Positions 2,763 through 63,652 of a DNA stretch of 64,000 nucleotides are shown piece by piece. The DNA is taken from contig OZ244653.1 of assembly GCA_965218795.1 (NCBI GenBank), positions 2,528,001-2,592,000 of the forward strand. The letters run 5' to 3'. Under the pieces are notes generated by a model. That model saw only the letters and a program-made list of their open reading frames with translations. It did no database searches and was not told the origin of the DNA. The DNA is from a bacterium. GTDB taxonomy: Bacteria; UBA8248; JACPRG01; G963555815. The position numbers and the translations under genes were made by a program. How positions within the stretch are numbered: position 1 is the stretch's first letter; each line of letters opens with the position of its first letter.

Positions 2763-3403
2763 GACCGGCTCCGTCCGTAACGACTCAAAGTAGAGGACTC
2801 CTTGATGACAACGGCCGGCACCAAAGGGATGACCGAATCGGTTCTATGGCCGAGGCTTCGGGACTACTGGCTGCCCGTCGCCTTCAGCGAAGAGGTGGGC
2901 GACAAGCCCCTGCCCGTCCGACTGCTCGACGAACGCCTGGCCATCTGCCGCCTGGGCGATGAAGTTGCCGCCTTCTACGACCTGTGCATCCACCGGGGCA
3001 CCCCCATCTCGCTGGGCCGGATCGAAAACGGCGAGGTCGTCTGCGCCTACCACGGCTGGTCGTACAATGCCGAAGGCCGCTGCACGCGAATCCCCTCGGT
3101 CCCCTCCGCGCACCCGATTCCCAAAAAGGCCTGCCTGACCCGGTACCGGGCGCAGGAGCGGTACGGGCTCGTGTGGGTTTTCATGGGGGAGGGGGAGCCT
3201 CGGGCGCCGATTCCCGCGTTTCCGCCCCTGGAGGATCCGAGTTTCCACGTCATTTTTCGGGACAAACGGCATTGGGACTGCAGCGCCGCCCGGGCCATCG
3301 AAAACTTCTTCGATTTCGGACATTTCGCGTGGGTGCACGACGGAATCCTGGGAACCCGCGATCAACCGATCCCGCCTGAGGTCACGTTGGAAAGAGACGG
3401 CGA
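1785..3403 (+). repeat. 584-bp direct repeat (1785-2368 = 2820-3403) between the two Rieske genes
   Basis: Both copies run from ACCAAAGGGATGACCG to GAAAGAGACGGCGA at offset 1035. Overlapping ORFs in other frames (1949/2984, 2012/3047) translate identically, so synonymous sites also match. Confidence 0.92.
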
Positions 3404-3803
3404 CGAGCTCCGTTTCTCTGCCTCGAGACCGGCGAGCGAACATCATGCGGTCCACGCGGTCGATCACCGAAACAATTACCGGGTGATCCGCCCCTTCTCG
3501 ATTCATCAATGGAAGGTGGAACCGGACGGAAAAACGGAGGCTTTCTGCTACACGGTCATGCCCGTCTCGGCAGGCGAGTGCAACCGGTTTTTCATGACGG
3601 CCCGAAACTATGAGGGCGGTCCCTACGGCGGCGACCAGCACGCCGAGCTTCAGAACATCGTGGCGGAACAGGACCGCGTTATCGTTGAGAGCCAGAGGCC
3701 CGAGGAGCTGCCTTTAGACCTCACCGAGGAGCTGCACATCAAGGGACCCGACGCGCCCGCCCTCCAGTACCGAAAGATGTTGGGAGAGCTGGGCGTTGAG
3801 TAA
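2805..3803 (+). CDS. Rieske non-heme iron oxygenase, VanA-like, copy B
   Basis: Same motifs as copy A; GAGG RBS upstream. N-terminal ~195 aa identical to copy A, C-terminal half divergent. Confidence 0.93.
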   Translation: MTTAGTKGMTESVLWPRLRDYWLPVAFSEEVGDKPLPVRLLDERLAICRLGDEVAAFYDLCIHRGTPISLGRIENGEVVCAYHGWSYNAEGRCTRIPSVPSAHPIPKKACLTRYRAQERYGLVWVFMGEGEPRAPIPAFPPLEDPSFHVIFRDKRHWDCSAARAIENFFDFGHFAWVHDGILGTRDQPIPPEVTLERDGDELRFSASRPASEHHAVHAVDHRNNYRVIRPFSIHQWKVEPDGKTEAFCYTVMPVSAGECNRFFMTARNYEGGPYGGDQHAELQNIVAEQDRVIVESQRPEELPLDLTEELHIKGPDAPALQYRKMLGELGVE

Positions 3804-58042: not shown

Positions 58043-59239
58043 ATGCTCAAGGCAACCAAGGATATCGCGCTGGCGACCACAATCACCGGCTCCCTGCCCC
58101 GCCCATCCTGGTACACGGCCAACCTCGCCGGGAGACCCTTTCGACAGGCCATGGCCGAAAGCGTTTTCCGCGAACAATACAACGATGCGGTTTCCTGCTT
58201 CATTCGGGATCAGGAACGCGCGGGGCTCGACATCCTCACGGACGGCGACTGCCGATTCGATACCGACGTCGGGGGACGGTCATGGGTGACCTACCCCGCC
58301 CAGCGGATCAACGGCATGACGGGCTACGACCACACCACCCGGCACACGAATTGGGGAGGGACGGCGCCGGGCGAGCTTCTCTATGAGGTCCTCGAGGCCA
58401 GGATGCTCCCCATCGTGACCGAAAAGGTGAGCCGGGGACCGCTGGAGTTCGGCCCGGTTTGGAAAGCGGCCCAGAAGATGACCCGGAAGCCCGTCAAGTT
58501 CGGAACGATCACGGCCGAATGCCTCGAATCCACCTGCGGCAACGAGTACTACGAAGACCGGCGGGAGCTTGTCATGGACTTGGCGGCGTTGCTCAATGCG
58601 GAGGCCCTGGACCTGGCCAGGGCGGGCTGCCCCATCGTTCAGATGGAGGAACCTTGGGTCCACCGTCTCCAGCACCATGAAGATGATCGGGGAATGGGGA
58701 TCGATTTCTACGTTGACGCCTTCAACCGGACGGTACAGGGCCTCGGCGAGCTGACAGAGGTCTGGTGCCACACCTGTTGGGGAAGCCCGGCCGCCCAGCG
58801 CTTTTACGATGAAGGAGAGCAGAGATACGCCCGGTCTCTGGAAAAGCTGAACCGGCTTCAGGCTGATGTGATCACCGTGGAGGCCGCCAATTCGCCCGAA
58901 TGGGAGTTCGAGGCCATCGGGAAGACGATCGCCGAGAAGAAAATCGCAATCGGCGTGGTGGACCACCGAACCCTTCAAATCGAAACCCCTGAACAAATCG
59001 CCCGCATGGTTCGCGAGGCTTTGAAACACATCCCCCCCGAACGCCTGATCCTTTCCTCCAACTGCGGTTTCGGCCGGGAGGGAATGAGCCGGCGCCACGC
59101 CTTCTACAAAATGGCAGCCATTGTCCGCGGCGGGAATATCGTCCGGCGGGAGCTCGGGATTTCCGAGGCCGACTGTCTGGCCGAAGACCCCCGCTTCCTC
59201 CTCGTGGACAAGGATGAGCGCCCGTATCCGCCGCAATGA
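58043..59239 (+). CDS. Cobalamin-independent methionine synthase II (MetE C-terminal-like) family protein, copy A
   Basis: TGSLPRP, QERAGLDILTDG, Q.EEP, zinc ligands HTCWG and SNCGFG. Confidence 0.9.
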   Translation: MLKATKDIALATTITGSLPRPSWYTANLAGRPFRQAMAESVFREQYNDAVSCFIRDQERAGLDILTDGDCRFDTDVGGRSWVTYPAQRINGMTGYDHTTRHTNWGGTAPGELLYEVLEARMLPIVTEKVSRGPLEFGPVWKAAQKMTRKPVKFGTITAECLESTCGNEYYEDRRELVMDLAALLNAEALDLARAGCPIVQMEEPWVHRLQHHEDDRGMGIDFYVDAFNRTVQGLGELTEVWCHTCWGSPAAQRFYDEGEQRYARSLEKLNRLQADVITVEAANSPEWEFEAIGKTIAEKKIAIGVVDHRTLQIETPEQIARMVREALKHIPPERLILSSNCGFGREGMSRRHAFYKMAAIVRGGNIVRRELGISEADCLAEDPRFLLVDKDERPYPPQ

Positions 59240-59290
59240 GCGCAAATCGACACGACGGCCTGACGATGTGAATCCGGGAGAGCCATCCAT

Positions 59291-60469
59291 TTGATCACAG
59301 CGACCCAAGACATCCCCCTGGCCACCACGATTACGGGTTCCCTTCCCCGCCCTTCCTGGTTTACCGCCCGATTGGGGGAAAGGCCATTCCGGCTGGCTAT
59401 GGCCGAGAGCGTCTTCCGCGAGCAGTACGGCGACGCGGTGGCCTGCTACCTGAGCGATCAAGAGCGGGCGGGACTGGACATCCTGACGGACGGAGACTGC
59501 CGGTTCGATACGGACGTGGCCGGAGGCGGCTGGGCGCTGTACCCGGCCCGGCGCATCCAGGGAATGACGGGCTACGTCCATACGCCGGAGCAGACGAATC
59601 AGGGCGGATCGAAACCCGGTGACCTGGTGTACGAGGTTCTCGAGGCCCGCATGCCGCCGATGGCGACGAGCAAACTCGGCCGCGGACCGTTGGAGTACGG
59701 TCCCATCTGGAAGACCGCGCAAAAAATGACGCGCCGGCCCGTCAAATTTGGAACCATTACGGCGGAATGCCTCTCGTCCCATTGCGGCAACGAGTTCTAC
59801 AAAGACCGGCAGGAGATGATCATGGACATGGCGGCCGTCCTGAACGAAGAGCTTCTGGATCTGGCCCAAGCCGGCTGCCCCGTCATCCAGATGGAAGAGC
59901 CCGTGGTCCACCGCCTGGACTACCATGAGGGCGATCAGAGGGCGGATTTCCATATCCAGGCGTTCAATCGTACCGTTCAGGGGTTGAGGGAACGGACGGA
60001 GGTCTGGTGCCACACCTGCTGGGGGAGCCCGGCATCCCAGCGCTTCTACGGCGAGGGCGATCAAACCTATGCCCGCTCCCTTGAAACGCTGAACGAGCTC
60101 GACACGGACGCGCTCACCTTCGAGTTTGCCAGCTCGCCCGAGTGGGAGTTCGAGGCCATCGGGAGCGTGATCCAGGAAAAGAAAATCGCCATCGGCGTCG
60201 TGAGCCACCGGACGCTTCAGGTGGAATCACCGGAAGAGGTGGCCCGAATGGTCCGCGAGGCGCTGAAGCACATCCCGCCCGAGCGCTTGATCCTGTCATC
60301 CGATTGCGGGTTCGGCCGCGAGGGGGTGAGCCGCCGCCATGCCTTTTACAAAATGGCGGCCATCGTCCGGGGGGCCAACATCGTCCGCAGGGAGCTGGGC
60401 CTGCCCGAGGCCGTCTGCCTGGCCGAGGATTCAAAGTTTACGCTGGTGGAAAGCGGACCGGATCCGTAG
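59291..60469 (+). CDS. Cobalamin-independent methionine synthase II family protein, copy B
   Basis: Colinear paralog of copy A with HTCWG and SDCGFG; TTG start after GGGAG. Confidence 0.9.
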   Translation: MITATQDIPLATTITGSLPRPSWFTARLGERPFRLAMAESVFREQYGDAVACYLSDQERAGLDILTDGDCRFDTDVAGGGWALYPARRIQGMTGYVHTPEQTNQGGSKPGDLVYEVLEARMPPMATSKLGRGPLEYGPIWKTAQKMTRRPVKFGTITAECLSSHCGNEFYKDRQEMIMDMAAVLNEELLDLAQAGCPVIQMEEPVVHRLDYHEGDQRADFHIQAFNRTVQGLRERTEVWCHTCWGSPASQRFYGEGDQTYARSLETLNELDTDALTFEFASSPEWEFEAIGSVIQEKKIAIGVVSHRTLQVESPEEVARMVREALKHIPPERLILSSDCGFGREGVSRRHAFYKMAAIVRGANIVRRELGLPEAVCLAEDSKFTLVESGPDP

Positions 60470-60560: not shown

Positions 60561-61576
60561 TTAATTGCTGGTCGGCAGGAACTGGTTGGTGTACAGATCC
60601 TTCACCGCCACGGCGCATGGGTTCTTCCCCAGACCGCTCATGATCGCGTTCCGCGTGAACTTCATTTTCTTCTCGGTCATGTAGCCCAGCCCGTACTGGA
60701 TGGTCGTCTCCGTCAGCATGGAATTGTTGGCGGTCTGCCACTTGAGCATTTCCGACCGCTTCTTCGACTGCGGATTGTGCTTGAGAAGGATGTCCACGGC
60801 TTCCCCGGGGTTCTTGGAGGTCCAGGCCAGGCTCTTGAGGGAGGCGTGAATGAACCGACGGACTTGATCCGGGTTGCTCTGGATGCGTGTATCCAGGGTG
60901 TTCAACGCGAGGGAGTAAAGATTCATCCCCCAGTCGGAGAAAACAAGCCGGTGAATCTTTTTCCCGATCTTTTCGGCGCCCTCCACGATGTTGTGATCGA
61001 CGCTGGTGAAGGTGGCGATGGAATCCACCTTTCCCGCGTACATCGACGGGGCCATGGCCGAAGGAGGCATGGCCACCCATTTCACCTTGGCCATATCCAC
61101 TCCGTTCACTTTCGCAAAGAGAGGAAAGACCGTCCGCAGCGAAGACCAGACAGGAGCGCCGACCGTGCGGCCCTCGAGGTCTTTGGGTTTCATGATGCCG
61201 GAACCCGCCAGGGTGTAGACGACATTGAGGTCTTTCGCCAGAAAGACACCGATAGCCCGGATGCCCACGTTTTGCGCGCGCGCCTTGATGATTTCCCCCA
61301 TGTCCGCCAAACCGAATTCAGCCGCCTTGCCCACGACCGCTTTCACGGCTTTGGCCGACCCCGCTCCCTTGATAAAGGTCAGGTCCAGGCCGTTTTCCTT
61401 GTAGAAGCCCTTCTCCTTTCCGGCGAACCAGGCCGATTGCTGTCCGTCTGCCACCCAATTCAGGATGAAGCGGACCCCCTCTCGGCAGAGGCCGTGCCGG
61501 TCCATAGGATGAGTCCCAAAGACAGCATCGCCAGCGTCCCAAGACTCCGATAGGAGAGATTTCGGATCGGGTTCAT
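60561..61576 (-). pseudogene. NMT1/THI5 (SsuA-like) ABC substrate-binding protein, frameshifted just after the signal peptide
   Basis: MNPIRNLS...TGTASAE, a shift in the 5-G run (61475-61479), then VRFILNW...KGFYKENGL...GS, I..PKDL.G. Confidence 0.85.
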
Positions 61577-61624
61577 GTCGTCTATATGGACGCCTCCCGG
61601 TTTGCGAGGGACGATTTGGTGTTT

Positions 61625-61800
61625 CCGGACAACAGGTTGCAGTTCTATATGCGGCCTGTTTGTGCAGGGCTTGTGCCTGCTGGCCCCGATGGAATCTGCC
61701 GACCCGCGCCTCATTCTCCTTGAGGGCTTTTCGCCCCTGACGACATGCAGGCTTGGCGGATCGCGGTCTGACCTGTTGGCCATCACACCTTGTCGTACCT
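61625..61800 (-). ncRNA. Predicted bridge RNA / seekRNA of the IS1111-group element (boundaries approximate)
   Basis: Two stem-closed internal loops whose unpaired segments match the target flanks (CATGTCGTC; TCAAGGAG) and the circle junction (ATTCCAT; CATATAGAA). Confidence 0.8.
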
Positions 61801-61857
61801 TGCGCAACCTTTCAGCGTGCCACCTCCTTGGTTGGTGGTTCCTGTCGCCAACCGCGC

Positions 61858-62671
61858 TTACGCGGCCTGACTGACAAAATTTGGTTGGTACGCCCGGACA
61901 TGGGCCAGCAAGGCCCAGATCGTGCGCGCCGTCTTGTTCGCCAGCGCAACAGCGACGACGTTCGCCGGCCGGCGCTCGGCCAGTCGCGCTCAGCACCCCG
62001 ACACCGGGGATCTCCGCGATCCGCTGGCTGGCCGCATTGTCCCGATGCCACAGCTTGAGCCGCCGCTCGATATCGCCAATCTCCTCGTCGAGCCGGGCCA
62101 CACGCGCCCACTGCTCACGCAAGGTCTCCACGACCATCGCCGGCAATCGTTCCGAGACCCGCTCAAGGGCCACGGCCATACCCCCCCCTCATACCGGCCC
62201 GGCCTTGCAGCATGACTTCGCCGTATTCGGCCAACAGACCGCGCAGGCCGTTGAATCTGGGCGGTGCGGAACTTCACCAGCTGCTGGCGCATGCGATGCA
62301 GCGCCAGGACCGCCTGTTGCTCCTCGCTCTTGAGCGCAACCGTCTTGATGCCGGGCTGCTGCACCGCCGTCCAGAGCGCGCGTGCGTCATGTACATCGCT
62401 CTTGTTGCCGCCCACGAACGGTCCTGACCATCTTTGCCGGCAGAAGCCTGACCGCGTGGCCCAGCTCCTGCAGCCGGCGCGACCAGTGCTGCGAGCCGCC
62501 GCACGCCTCCATGCCAATCAGGCACGGCGCGCGATTGGCGAAGTGCTCCAGGAACTTCGCCCGTGTCAGCCTCAGACCCATGATCTCGCCCGTCTCCATG
62601 TCGACCCAGTACAGTTGAAACACCCTTTTCGCCGTATCCACGCCCACGACCGTTCTGCCAGTCTTCATCAT
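61858..62671 (-). pseudogene. IS110/IS1111 transposase with frameshifts and an internal deletion
   Basis: VGVDTAK, GMEACG, NKSDVHDA, IPGVG and VALANK.AR..WALL. Frameshifts at about 62421, 62251 and 62181; segment between GVLSAT and LAERRP missing at about 61981. Confidence 0.92.
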
Positions 62672-62890
62672 TGGACCCTCCGGTTGGCTTGGGAAGAGTT
62701 TATTCTTCCCCCTTGGGCACTGTGATGCCGTCGGCCCCCGTGGGTCCACTTTAGCCCTCTCGCCGTCCAACATCAGGGAGTGGGAGGCGTCCATTCCATT
62801 CTCCCTAAGAAGAATCCTCATTGTCGCTCCAGCCGCATGTGCGGGAACCTGCATTTCTGATCGTTGCTTCGTCATCAGGCCGGTCGGCCC

Positions 62891-63652
62891 TTACGTCATC
62901 ACGGCGCCGCCGTCGACGACAACGAGCTGACCGGTCATGAAGTCGCTGGCTGAAGAAGCCAGATAGAGCATCGTCCCCTGAACGTCACGGGGGAACTGGT
63001 CCCGCCTGAGACATCGCGTCGTTTGCGACCGCCCGGTCGCGTTTTCCAGAAACGGCTTCTCCATCTCCAGGACTTTCTCGCTCAGCGTAAACCCGGGGGC
63101 CAGGGTGTTCACAGTGATTCCAAAATCGCCCGTCTCCCGGGCCAGTGCGCGGGTCATCCCGTGGACGGCTCCTTTGGACGTCACATACTGAAGAAATCCG
63201 GAAATCCCCCTTTCCGCGGTCGGCGAGCCGATGTTGATAATCTTCCCGCTCCCCTGCTCCTTCATATGGGGGAAGACCGCCCGGCAAAGCAGAAAGATAC
63301 CCTTGACGTTGACGGCCATGACGCGGTCCCACTCATCGGCGGAGATTTCCCAAAACGGCTTGAAGGCGAGGTCCGCCCAGAGGGCCGCGTTGTTGACCAG
63401 GATGTCTACGCCCCCAAAGGCGCCGACGACCTCTTCCACCAGCCGCTGCACGGATCCCTCGTCCGACACGTCGATGTGAAATTCGGTGACTTGGCCGCCT
63501 TCGGCCTGGATCTCCCGCGCCGCAGGGGCGGCATCAATCAAATCCGCCATCGCCACCCGCGCGCCTTCGCCCGCCAGCGTCCTCGCATATTCCTTCCCGA
63601 TCCCGCGTCCCGCGCCCGTGACCAGGATCCGCGTTCCATCCAATTGACCCAT
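62891..63652 (-). CDS. SDR family oxidoreductase
   Basis: TGAGRGIG, NNA, YVTSK, NTLAPG and DGG; clear paralog of 19385-20143. Confidence 0.93.
   Translation of the reverse strand: MGQLDGTRILVTGAGRGIGKEYARTLAGEGARVAMADLIDAAPAAREIQAEGGQVTEFHIDVSDEGSVQRLVEEVVGAFGGVDILVNNAALWADLAFKPFWEISADEWDRVMAVNVKGIFLLCRAVFPHMKEQGSGKIINIGSPTAERGISGFLQYVTSKGAVHGMTRALARETGDFGITVNTLAPGFTLSEKVLEMEKPFLENATGRSQTTRCLRRDQFPRDVQGTMLYLASSASDFMTGQLVVVDGGAVMT

What the first reader, a model, noticed from the sequence alone, without database searches (positions are those of the whole stretch)
61625..61800. Bridge/seek RNA with guides that match both the real insertion site and the element's own circle junction
Seen (minus strand): the empty site reconstructs as TTCTTAGGG-AG-ACGACATG and the excised-circle junction as CCATAT-AG-AATGGAATGG. 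In the 3' non-coding end, loop 1 is closed by GATCCGC/GCGGGTC and GCCT/AGGC and has an inner hairpin AGGGGC-GAAAA-GCCCT. It carries CATGTCGTC (61739-61747), the exact 9-nt reverse complement of the right target flank GACGACATG, and TCAAGGAG (61716-61723), a 6/8 match to the left flank TTAGGGAG. Loop 2 is closed by GCAG/CTGC and carries ATTCCAT (61689-61695), complementary to the left end ATGGAAT, and CATATAGAA (61643-61651), an exact 9-nt copy of the junction. Established: IS110/IS1111 recombinases are guided by an element-encoded RNA with target- and donor-binding loops, located in the downstream non-coding region in the IS1111 group. Inference: all four guides and an AG core can be read here, giving a target consensus like TCAAGGAG-ACGACATG, which resembles an RBS-spacer-ATG.
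Basis: partly seen in the sequence, partly recalled or inferred. Interest (0 to 1): 0.85.

Follow-up and report, generated by a model that had tools for sequence, protein, structure and literature searches.

The report
Bridge RNA of an IS1111 element
The flagged stretch is the guide ("bridge" or "seek") RNA gene at the tail of a decayed IS1111-type insertion sequence lodged between the ribosome-binding site and the start codon of a transporter gene; it is a well-supported new example of a mechanism first described in 2024, not a new kind of system.

Summary
The element (window 62800..61582, minus strand, 1219 bp) is an IS110-family, IS1111-group insertion sequence. It has DEDD and Transposase_20 domains, a perfect 13-nt subterminal inverted repeat and a 276-nt non-coding region 3' of the recombinase gene.

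I compared 80 homologous loci from other genomes. The 3' region folds into two internal loops closed by stems with compensatory changes. The loop segments co-vary with the DNA beside each insertion: 63 insertions, 50 guide pairs, and 0 of 5000 permutations reach the observed match on either side. The donor-loop segments track each element's own ends. So the bridge/seek RNA reading is supported.

Corrections:
- Only one base (G here), not AG, behaves as the shared core across the family.
- The left-target match is not significant in the window alone.
- The window copy's recombinase gene is broken, and so is the genome's only other copy.

Many relatives also sit between a GGAG-like ribosome-binding site and an ATG that opens a gene.

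Verdict: a new member of a known kind, of moderate interest.

The parts
61582..62800 (-). Whole insertion sequence (1219 bp), IS110 family, IS1111 group. A decayed copy.
   Evidence: Ends were defined by 99% identity to a second, 1434-bp copy in the same genome (G000:C1:784841-786274) and by the subterminal inverted repeats.
62801..62808 (-). Left target half TTAGGGAG. It holds the Shine-Dalgarno-like GGGAG of the interrupted gene.
   Evidence: It matches the left target guide TCAAGGAG at 6 of 8 positions. Left flanks follow their own guides across the family.
62782..62794 (-). Left subterminal inverted repeat ATGGACGCCTCCC, preceded by the 6-nt extension AATGGA (62800..62795).
   Evidence: the repeat finder pair I1: 13 nt, 100% complementary.
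61858..62670 (-). Recombinase pseudogene. Defects: extra bases at 62423 and 62254, a G8 run at 62181-62188 that shifts the frame, and a deletion of about 217 bp with its junction within 61983-62000. The deletion removes the GL.P....[ST]G motif.
   Evidence: ORF fragments in three frames. Comparison with copy 2. The motif is present in copy 2 and absent from all frames of the window copy. Pfam PF01548 and PF02371 match copy 2. NCBIfam NF033542 matches.
61620..61786 (-). Conserved bridge/seek RNA module (167 nt) holding both loops.
   Evidence: Alignment A1 of 53 distinct homologues. Consensus fold. 96.3% of cells are paired against 28-43% for slid controls, and 12 pairs show compensatory change.
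61756..61763 (-). 5' arm of stem P1 (CGATCCGC). It pairs with 61707..61700 (GCGGGTCG).
   Evidence: 6 of 8 pairs changed on both sides across the family (helix 2).
61739..61747 (-). Right target guide CAUGUCGUC, on the 5' side of the target-binding loop. It is complementary to the top strand of the right flank, including the core G.
   Evidence: 9 of 9 complementary to 61582..61574. The best-register match is 9 of 10 here and at least 7 in 52 of 61 insertions. Controlled test.
61724..61737 (-). Inner hairpin of the target loop (GGGGC GAAA AGCCC).
   Evidence: 3 of 4 pairs show compensatory change (helix 4).
61716..61723 (-). Left target guide UCAAGGAG, on the 3' side of the target-binding loop. 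It has the same sense as the left flank.
   Evidence: 6 of 8 match with the window flank and 6 of 8 with copy 2. Family: own flank 5.83 against other flanks 3.12 of 8, 0 of 5000 permutations. Its last base equals the left-junction base in 52 of 53 insertions.
61712..61715 (-). AAUG, nearly invariant (the single exception seen is AACG in L077), directly after the left target guide. It is identical to the first four bases of the left end. Role unknown: a handshake-like guide or an extension of stem P2.
   Evidence: Alignment A1. Inference only.
61689..61695 (-). Right donor guide AUUCCAU, on the 5' side of the donor-binding loop. It is complementary to bases 2-8 of the left end (ATGGAAT).
   Evidence: 6.31 of 7 paired, 0 of 5000 permutations. 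Changes C<->G, U<->A and A<->T occur in step with the left end.
61643..61651 (-). Left donor guide CAUAUAGAA, on the 3' side of the donor-binding loop. It equals the right end CCATATAG plus the first AA of the left end.
   Evidence: The two variable positions agree with the element's own right end in 29 of 32 distinct combinations. The 3 exceptions differ only at the core base.
61586..61598 (-). Right subterminal inverted repeat GGGAGGCGTCCAT, followed by ATA (61585..61583) and the shared core base G (61582).
61574..61581 (-). Right target half ACGACATG. The ATG at 61576..61574 is the start codon of an NMT1/THI5-like binding-protein gene.
   Evidence: Pfam PF09084 matches the downstream ORF.
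61602..61608 (-). -35-like hexamer (CTCGCA/TCGCAA). In the computed circle it lies 17-18 nt upstream of a -10 TAGAAT, formed by TAG of the right end (61584..61582) and AAT of the left end (62800..62798).
   Evidence: In 47 of 47 distinct computed junctions of the family, the best -35/-10 pair has its -10 across the joint. Not tested experimentally.

Best explanation
Window 61786..61620 (minus strand) is the gene for the bridge (seek) RNA of an IS1111-group insertion sequence.

How the RNA is built (shown):
- It has two internal loops on a conserved scaffold.
- Target loop: the 5' side (CAUGUCGUC) pairs with the top strand of the right target half, and the 3' side (UCAAGGAG) pairs with the bottom strand of the left target half.
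- Donor loop: AUUCCAU pairs with the start of the element's left end, and CAUAUAGAA pairs with the bottom strand of its right end.

How it works (inferred by homology with IS621, ISEc11, ISPa11 and ISKpn4):
- A DEDD/Ser recombinase tetramer holds the RNA.
- The RNA brings the excised circle junction and the target together.
- Strands are exchanged at a single shared base (G here).

This copy landed between the Shine-Dalgarno GGGAG and the ATG of a transporter binding-protein gene, in the same direction as that gene.

What is shown: the anatomy, the structure conservation and the guide-to-flank co-variation. What is inferred: RNA production, protein binding and the chemistry.

The copy is decayed. 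Its recombinase gene is broken, so it can no longer move by itself.
For: Identity of the element:
- Pfam DEDD_Tnp_IS110 (4.5e-11) and Transposase_20 (8.2e-21) match the two halves of copy 2.
- NCBIfam NF033542 'IS110 family RNA-guided transposase' scores 147.6 and 160.8 bits against a cut-off of 140.
- The subterminal inverted repeat is 13 nt and perfect.
- The long non-coding region (276 nt) lies 3' of the gene.

Structure:
- The RNAalifold consensus of 53 distinct homologues puts all four guide segments in internal loops.
- 31 pairs are 96.3% paired, against 27.9-42.9% when slid.
- 103 cells show compensatory change, against 33.3 +/- 6.1 in shuffles (0 of 500).
- G-U pairs are common (for example 26 G-U and 20 A-U at one pair), which suits RNA.

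Target guides (63 unique insertions, 50 guide pairs):
- Right guide against own flank 5.10 of 9; against flanks of other guide groups 3.28.
- Left guide 5.83 against 3.12 of 8.
- 0 of 5000 group-level permutations reach either value.

Donor guides: 29 of 32 combinations are concordant with the element's own right end, and the left-end guide gives 0 of 5000 permutations.

Within the genome:
- A second copy with the same guides sits at a similar site, CATGGAG | A ACGATATG.
- An 86%-identical RNA remnant has 12 of its 24 differences inside the 21 nt of the target guides and 1 in the 16 nt of the donor guides.

Other support:
- The guide order (top-strand match 5') is the one reported for IS1111 seekRNAs (PMC11187229, Results).
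- The computed circle junctions carry a -35/-10 pair across the joint in 47 of 47.
- Contigs of one metatranscriptome cover 61656-61771 with 0 differences. This is a weak hint only.
Against: - No RNA, circle or empty site was observed directly. The RNA-library contigs cannot show transcription, ends or strand.
- Rfam 15 has no matching family.
- The left-guide match in the window is not significant alone (2473 of 3000 shuffles).
- Copy 2's right flank differs from the guide at 2 of 9 positions, one of them at the core.
- The register between the right guide and the flank drifts by -2 to +2 bases among insertions. Either my end calls are imprecise or the pairing is more flexible than assumed.
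- Insertions within one genome and related elements are not independent. Permuting by guide group lessens this problem but does not remove it.
- 16 of 82 loci were left out of the counts because no right end was found within 480 nt. 15 of those 16 still hold the RNA region.
- Both recombinase copies in this genome are frameshifted, and no other close homologue is present.
Confidence: 0.9

Rival explanations
1. It is a bridge RNA gene by descent but a fossil here. With both recombinase copies broken, the RNA and the ends no longer do anything, and the sequence is drifting.
For: - The window copy has two 1-bp insertions, a shifted G8 run and a deletion of about 217 bp that removes the catalytic Ser/Thr-Gly motif.
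- Copy 2 carries the same G8 frameshift.
- tblastn of the genome finds no other close recombinase; the next best is 40% identical.
- The -35 of the junction promoter is weaker here than the family consensus.
Against: - The 167-nt RNA module is 100% identical in both copies, while the window's recombinase gene has decayed.
- Both ends and the inverted repeats are intact, so the copy could still be moved in trans.
- The G run reads 7, 8 and 9 in contigs of three public runs, and 7 would restore the frame. The frameshift may therefore be a homopolymer assembly error or a reversible slip.
- The neighbouring gene also has a frameshift at a G5 run, which raises the suspicion of assembly errors.
Confidence: 0.45
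2. The co-variation reflects DNA-DNA guide pairing within single-stranded DNA at the element end, as in IS200/IS605, and not an RNA.
For: Co-variation between loop segments and flanks cannot by itself tell RNA from single-stranded DNA. No RNA was observed directly.
Against: - The recombinase is a DEDD/Transposase_20 protein that matches the NCBIfam model named 'IS110 family RNA-guided transposase', not an HUH enzyme.
- For four IS1111 elements the RNA was co-purified and shown to be required (PMC11187229, Results read).
- The stems tolerate many G-U pairs.
- The segment is held in a metatranscriptome assembly (weak).
Confidence: 0.03
3. The matches are chance complementarity inside a structured 3' untranslated region or terminator.
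For: Short matches are easy to find. The 6/8 left match is not significant in the window alone.
Against: - The 9-nt match is reached by 7 of 3000 shuffles.
- The family-wide guide-flank co-variation gives 0 of 5000 permutations on both sides.
- The donor guides track the element ends.
Confidence: 0.01

Closest known systems
seekRNAs of the IS1111-family elements ISEc11, ISPa11, ISKpn4 and ISPst6 (Siddiquee et al. 2024, PMC11187229)
   Same: - The recombinase gene is followed by a long 3' non-coding region, and the element has subterminal inverted repeats with a left-end extension.
- The RNA carries one segment complementary to the top strand of the target, lying 5' of a segment complementary to the bottom strand.
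- The two matches meet at the insertion point.
- No multi-base target duplication is made.
- A promoter is formed at the circle junction.
- Relatives show natural re-targeting: a conserved scaffold with changed guide segments.
   Different: - The target here is a ribosome-binding site plus a start codon, not a REP, an attC site or the ISEc11 site.
- The RNA here was not purified or sequenced.
- I did not align this RNA with those published RNAs, so scaffold homology to them is untested.
- The recombinase is only about 42% identical (C-terminal half) to IS5075-family proteins on plasmids.
IS621 bridge RNA (Durrant et al. 2024, PMC11208160; Hiraizumi et al. 2024, PMC11208158)
   Same: - It has two internal loops, one reading the target and one reading the donor (the circle junction).
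- Each loop has a segment for the bottom strand of the left half and one for the top strand of the right half.
- A core is shared by donor and target.
- The recombinase is DEDD plus Ser.
   Different: - The IS621 RNA lies in the left end, 5' of the gene. Here it lies in the right end.
- The order of guides within each loop is reversed.
- The IS621 core is the dinucleotide CT. Here only one base behaves as shared.
- Handshake guides were not identified here.
IS900 and relatives of mycobacteria (IS110 group)
   Same: They are reported to insert between the ribosome-binding site and the start codon of host genes. The source is the title of Doran et al. 1997, seen only in the reference list of PMC8141618; the consensus site itself is recalled, not seen.
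   Different: - They belong to a different subgroup, without subterminal inverted repeats.
- As recalled, the recombinase gene there is opposed to the host gene. Here it is co-directional.
- No RNA guide analysis of IS900 was seen here.
IS200/IS605 guide sequences
   Same: Short element-encoded segments pair with the target and the ends to set the cleavage sites.
   Different: Those are DNA-DNA pairs in single-stranded DNA and use an HUH transposase. Here the protein family and the stem G-U pairs point to RNA.

Membership tests
IS110 family, IS1111 group | DEDD (RuvC-like) N-terminal domain | tested here: met
   PF01548 matches the N-terminal ORF of copy 2 at 4.5e-11. The window copy matches it at 90-97% in three frame pieces.
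IS110 family, IS1111 group | C-terminal Transposase_20 domain with the motif GL-P----S/TG | tested here: met
   PF02371 matches at 8.2e-21. GLVPRHSGTG is present in copy 2. In the window copy the motif is deleted, so the feature is met for the element type but not for this copy's gene.
IS110 family, IS1111 group | Subterminal inverted repeats of 7-17 bp with a short terminal extension | tested here: met
   The repeat is 13 nt and perfect, with 6 nt outside it on the left and 4 nt on the right.
IS110 family, IS1111 group | The longer non-coding region lies downstream of the recombinase gene | tested here: met
   276 nt downstream against about 130 nt upstream.
IS110 family, IS1111 group | Site-specific insertion without a multi-base target duplication | tested here: met
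   One shared base in 49 of 53 insertions; the preceding base is shared in only 10 of 53. Similar sites for the two copies in this genome.
IS110 family, IS1111 group | Promoter assembled at the circle junction | tested here: inconclusive
   The computed junctions carry a -35/-10 pair across the joint in 47 of 47. No circle was observed. The window's -35 is weak.
Bridge/seek RNA | Conserved fold with two internal loops | tested here: met
Bridge/seek RNA | Loop segments co-vary with the target flanks (one per strand) and with the donor ends | tested here: met
Bridge/seek RNA | IS1111-type order: the top-strand match lies 5' of the bottom-strand match | tested here: met
   Right guide at 61747..61739 and left guide at 61723..61716. 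The order is as described in PMC11187229.
Bridge/seek RNA | The RNA is made, binds the recombinase and is required for transposition | not testable with these tools
   The only hint is that contigs of one RNA library cover 61656-61771.
Rfam families | Match to a curated covariance model | tested here: not met
   No family matched in 61000-63500 at E <= 1, apart from a chance sR14 hit at 62854-62906 (19.1 bits against a gathering score of 38). This speaks to Rfam's content, not against the reading.

The most novel reading that the evidence does not exclude
This element belongs to a widespread clade of IS1111 elements found in Alpha-, Beta- and Gammaproteobacteria and in Acidobacteria MAGs, and on an E. 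coli plasmid.

The clade's RNA guides are tuned to the generic translation-start signal. The left guide is itself a Shine-Dalgarno copy (GGAG-like in 37 of 50 guide pairs). The right guide begins with the complement of the start codon (NAU in 43 of 50).

Because the element enters co-directionally between the ribosome-binding site and the ATG, it silences the gene's translation, while the host promoter reads into the promoter-less recombinase gene and the RNA.

The G7/8/9 run inside the recombinase gene may act as a slip-strand on/off switch.
Probability: 0.35. Interest if true: 0.6.

Novelty: new member of a known kind. Interest (0 to 1): 0.4.

Why it matters
- **For this genome.** It explains why the binding-protein gene has lost its ribosome-binding site. 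It also marks two copies and three remnants of one element.
- **For the field.** The family gives about 50 natural guide variants on one scaffold, each with its insertion site. That is a ready-made test set for the pairing rules of IS1111-type recombinases: register, single-base core and tolerated mismatches. These rules are less worked out than those of IS621.
- **For annotation.** This RNA has no Rfam family, so it is missed by routine annotation.
- **Biology.** The apparent preference for ribosome-binding-site/start-codon sites, if selected, would show how a promoter-less element secures its own transcription. It would echo the old IS900 observation in a different subgroup.

Tried and rejected
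- **Rfam**: no family. The sR14 hit lies outside the region and is below threshold.
- **Empty site**: I searched 40 relatives with the whole region. The left flank matched in G004 and G006, and the right flank in G003. No genome had both flanks adjacent, so the pre-insertion site stays a reconstruction. DNA contigs of runs X1, X2 and X5 run from each flank into the element ends, so those samples also carry the insertion.
- **RNA run X19**: its contigs lie only on 61656-61771. The rest of the 1.8-kb stretch, including the recombinase gene, has no cover. Absence of cover in contigs at depth 2-4 proves nothing, so I do not use it as evidence of a processed small RNA.
- **'AG' dinucleotide core**: rejected as a family rule.
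- **Right donor guide pairing with the start of the inverted repeat rather than left-end bases 2-8**: considered because ATGGA occurs twice. The co-variation favours bases 2-8 but does not exclude the other.
- **Handshake guides as in IS621** (PMC11208158 passages): I could not assign them. The conserved AAUG after the left guide may equally extend stem P2 by pairing with the NAU at the start of the right guide.
- **Guide-predicted target in the own genome**: 0 sites with up to 1 mismatch, 3 with 2, and 40 with up to 3. There is no perfect vacant site.
- **Naming the nearest ISfinder element**: not possible. Plasmid annotations say only 'IS110 family transposase'.
- **Literature on IS1111-group elements aiming at ribosome-binding-site/start-codon sites**: I found none in the held library.
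  - (IS1111 + Shine-Dalgarno): 4 papers, 3 of them listed; none on this by the listing.
  - 4 papers; the words occur in other contexts.
  - 0 papers.
  - Supplementary tables of PMC11208160 and PMC11187229 (predicted RNAs, target logos) are closed and may already list relatives of this element.
- ****: the window's own row was mis-located by my script and counted as a miss.
- ****: L008 and L018 have wrongly called left ends and were kept, which works against the result.

Full report
**What is there.** On the minus strand the window holds a 1219-bp element from 62800 to 61582. Its left flank ends ...TTCTTAGGGAG and the element begins AATGGAATGGACGCC. It ends ...GGCGTCCATATAG and is followed by ACGACATGAAC. 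That ATG (61576..61574) opens the signal peptide of an NMT1/THI5-like binding-protein gene. A short-chain dehydrogenase gene lies upstream. The same genome holds a fuller, 1434-bp copy at 99% identity (G000:C1:784841-786274). Its two open frames match Pfam DEDD_Tnp_IS110 and Transposase_20 and the NCBIfam model 'IS110 family RNA-guided transposase'. The element has a perfect 13-nt subterminal inverted repeat. Its long non-coding region (276 nt) lies 3' of the gene. These are the features that Siddiquee et al. (PMC11187229, Results read) and Durrant et al. (PMC11208160, passages read) give for the IS1111 group.

**The observation.** Every string and coordinate in the finding is correct. In the window alone, the 9-nt complement of the right flank is unlikely by chance (7 of 3000 shuffles). 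The 6/8 left match is not (2473 of 3000).

**Comparative test.** A scan of one genome per species returned 80 loci whose recombinase C-terminal half is 63-88% identical. With the window and copy 2 that makes 82 loci.
- In 66 of the 82 I could find the right end within 480 nt of the stop codon.
- Of the 16 misses, 15 still hold the RNA region. They sit at contig ends, are interrupted, or have a diverged repeat. One has no RNA region.

The non-coding regions align well. RNAalifold on 53 distinct sequences gives two internal loops. When I counted that structure, 96.3% of cells were paired, against 27.9-42.9% for slid controls. Twelve pairs changed on both sides. Compensated cells numbered 103, against 33.3 +/- 6.1 in shuffles (0 of 500). 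All four guide segments are unpaired in this fold.

**Guides against flanks.** I took the loop segments by alignment column and the flanks from each locus, which gave 63 unique insertions with 50 distinct guide pairs.
- The reverse complement of the 5' loop segment matches its own right flank at 5.10 of 9 positions, against 3.28 for the flanks of other guide groups.
- The 3' loop segment matches its own left flank at 5.83 of 8, against 3.12.
- Permuting flank sets among guide groups never reached the observed values (0 of 5000 on each side).

With the best of six registers, 52 of 61 insertions match at 7 or more positions. The window scores 9 of 10 and copy 2 scores 7 (which has no control of its own). 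Elements whose guides are not ribosome-binding-site-like also have flanks that follow them, for example GTCATGGA with gtgtcatgga, or AGTGGGAG/TGGGCCTGT with cgcgtgggag^gggcctgtg. So the segments are programmable and not merely conserved.

**Donor loop.** The two variable positions of the 3' segment agree with the element's own right end in 29 of 32 combinations. The 5' segment co-varies with left-end bases 2-8 (0 of 5000 permutations).

**Evidence within the genome.** An RNA-only remnant (G000:C1:5086463-5086639) is 86% identical. Twelve of its 24 differences lie in the 21 nt of the target guides, and one lies in the 16 nt of the donor guides.

- The base next to AATGG is the same at both junctions in 49 of 53 insertions, and it equals the last base of the left target guide in 52 of 53. 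The base before it is shared in only 10 of 53. Only one base (G here, A in most relatives) behaves as the core. The 'A' of 'AG' is shared here because the ribosome-binding site ends in AG.
- In three of the four exceptions, one of them copy 2, the right-junction base departs from the element's own guides. This suggests that it comes from the target.
- The register of the right guide drifts by up to two bases among insertions. I cannot tell imprecise end calls from real flexibility.

**State of this copy.** Relative to copy 2, the window copy has extra bases at 62423 and 62254 and a deletion of about 217 bp that removes the GL.P....[ST]G motif. Both copies have a G8 run (62181-62188), where intact relatives read straight through: in them the two halves abut in frame. 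The genome has no other close recombinase. Contigs of three public runs show 7, 8 and 9 G at this run, and they lack the two extra bases. The downstream gene also has a frameshift at a G5 run. Homopolymer assembly error, real decay and reversible slippage all remain open. The RNA module itself is identical in both copies.

**Mechanism.** By homology with IS621 and with the IS1111 elements tested by Siddiquee et al., I infer the following steps:
- The excised circle forms a promoter across its joint. The computed junctions carry a -35/-10 pair with the -10 across the joint in 47 of 47. Here it is CTCGCA-18-TAGAAT.
- The RNA, transcribed with the recombinase gene, is bound by the recombinase.
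- The donor loop holds the joint and the target loop holds GGAG|G|ACGACATG.
- Strands are exchanged at the shared base.

None of these steps was observed here. One metatranscriptome assembly holds contigs over 61656-61771. That shows presence in an RNA library and nothing more.

**Family-level pattern.**
- In 27 of 60 unique right flanks, an ATG within 16 nt of the core opens at least 80 codons. The figure for random positions in the same loci is 200 of 2600.
- The left guide is GGAG-like in 37 of 50 guide pairs, and the right guide starts NAU in 43 of 50.
- On an E. coli plasmid, a relative ends 5 nt before the annotated start codon of a 'plasmid stabilization protein' gene, with ACGGAG on its left.

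The element is always co-directional with the gene it interrupts. I read this as a clade that aims at translation-start regions, which would let host transcription feed a promoter-less element. That rationale is inference. A precedent exists in another subgroup: IS900 'targets translation initiation signals' (title of Doran et al. 1997, seen only in the reference list of PMC8141618). My searches of the held library found nothing on this for IS1111-group elements. The closed supplements of the two 2024 papers may cover it.

**Verdict.** It is a new member of a known kind. Bridge/seek RNAs in the right end of IS1111 elements were predicted for 93% of catalogued members (PMC11208160) and demonstrated for four (PMC11187229). 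Interest is moderate. It rests on the start-site targeting and on the natural guide series, not on the mechanism itself.

Noticed in passing
window 62181-62188 (and the same run in copy 2, L002 about 2111-2118): The G run inside the recombinase gene is 8 long in both genomic copies, which shifts the frame. Contigs of three public runs read 7 (X5), 8 (X2) and 9 (X1), and 7 would be in frame. It could be a homopolymer assembly error, a polymorphism or a slip-strand switch.
   Followed up: partly
window 61475-61479: The NMT1/THI5-like gene downstream of the insertion is itself split by a frameshift at a G5 run. A 38-codon signal-peptide ORF runs from 61576, and the main ORF runs 61505..60561. Together with the G8 run, this suggests homopolymer errors in the assembly.
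   Followed up: no
L005 1501-1677 (G000:C1:5086463-5086639): This is a solo remnant of the RNA module with re-written target guides (TATGGATAGGC and ATGTGGAG). It is cut at both ends. It abuts a different short repeat (…CCGGGGACCC…CTGCCTG.GCAGGAATGACGG) that recurs about 350 bp further on.
   Followed up: partly
L007 about 1501-1535 and L004 about 1410-1701 (own genome): There are two further remnants. One is the terminal 35 bp of a right end followed by CCTGTCATG. The other is an internally deleted relative whose right end is followed by AGCTGTATGG, inside what looks like the C-terminal part of an integrase-type transposase gene.
   Followed up: no
window 61712-61715: AAUG after the left target guide is nearly invariant in the family (AACG in L077) and equals the first four bases of the left end. 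The guide plus AAUG therefore copies the left junction made by insertion. It could act as a handshake-like guide, or it could pair with the NAU at the start of the right guide.
   Followed up: partly
L019 about 3300-3450: After a first right end, the flank reads AATGAGGCGCGGGTCGG..., which is the second half of the RNA module again. A second right end follows, and its flank fits the element's guide. This looks like an insertion into, or a recombination at, the left-guide/AATG spot of another copy, that is, self-targeting.
   Followed up: no
L024, L025, L027-L029, L032: Six or more copies, most of them in one MAG, sit in the same repeated sequence (CCCTTTGGGGA ^ AGAGGGATGCG). It matches their guides and is not a gene start. 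The clade also colonises dispersed repeats.
   Followed up: no
L098 2300-2320 (E. coli plasmid CP057155.1): A 54%-identical relative lies between ACGGAG and the annotated ATG of the antitoxin-like 'plasmid stabilization protein' gene of a RelE/ParE pair. Its loop segments match both flanks.
   Followed up: partly
window 58043-60469: Two tandem, clearly paralogous ORFs of 398 and 392 aa lie on the plus strand just downstream of the interrupted operon. I did not examine them.
   Followed up: no
window 61651: The window and copy 2 have C where the family, the L005 remnant and most public contigs have G (CGCAUAUAG against CGGAUAUAG). The C lengthens the match of the left donor guide to the right end by one base.
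   Followed up: no
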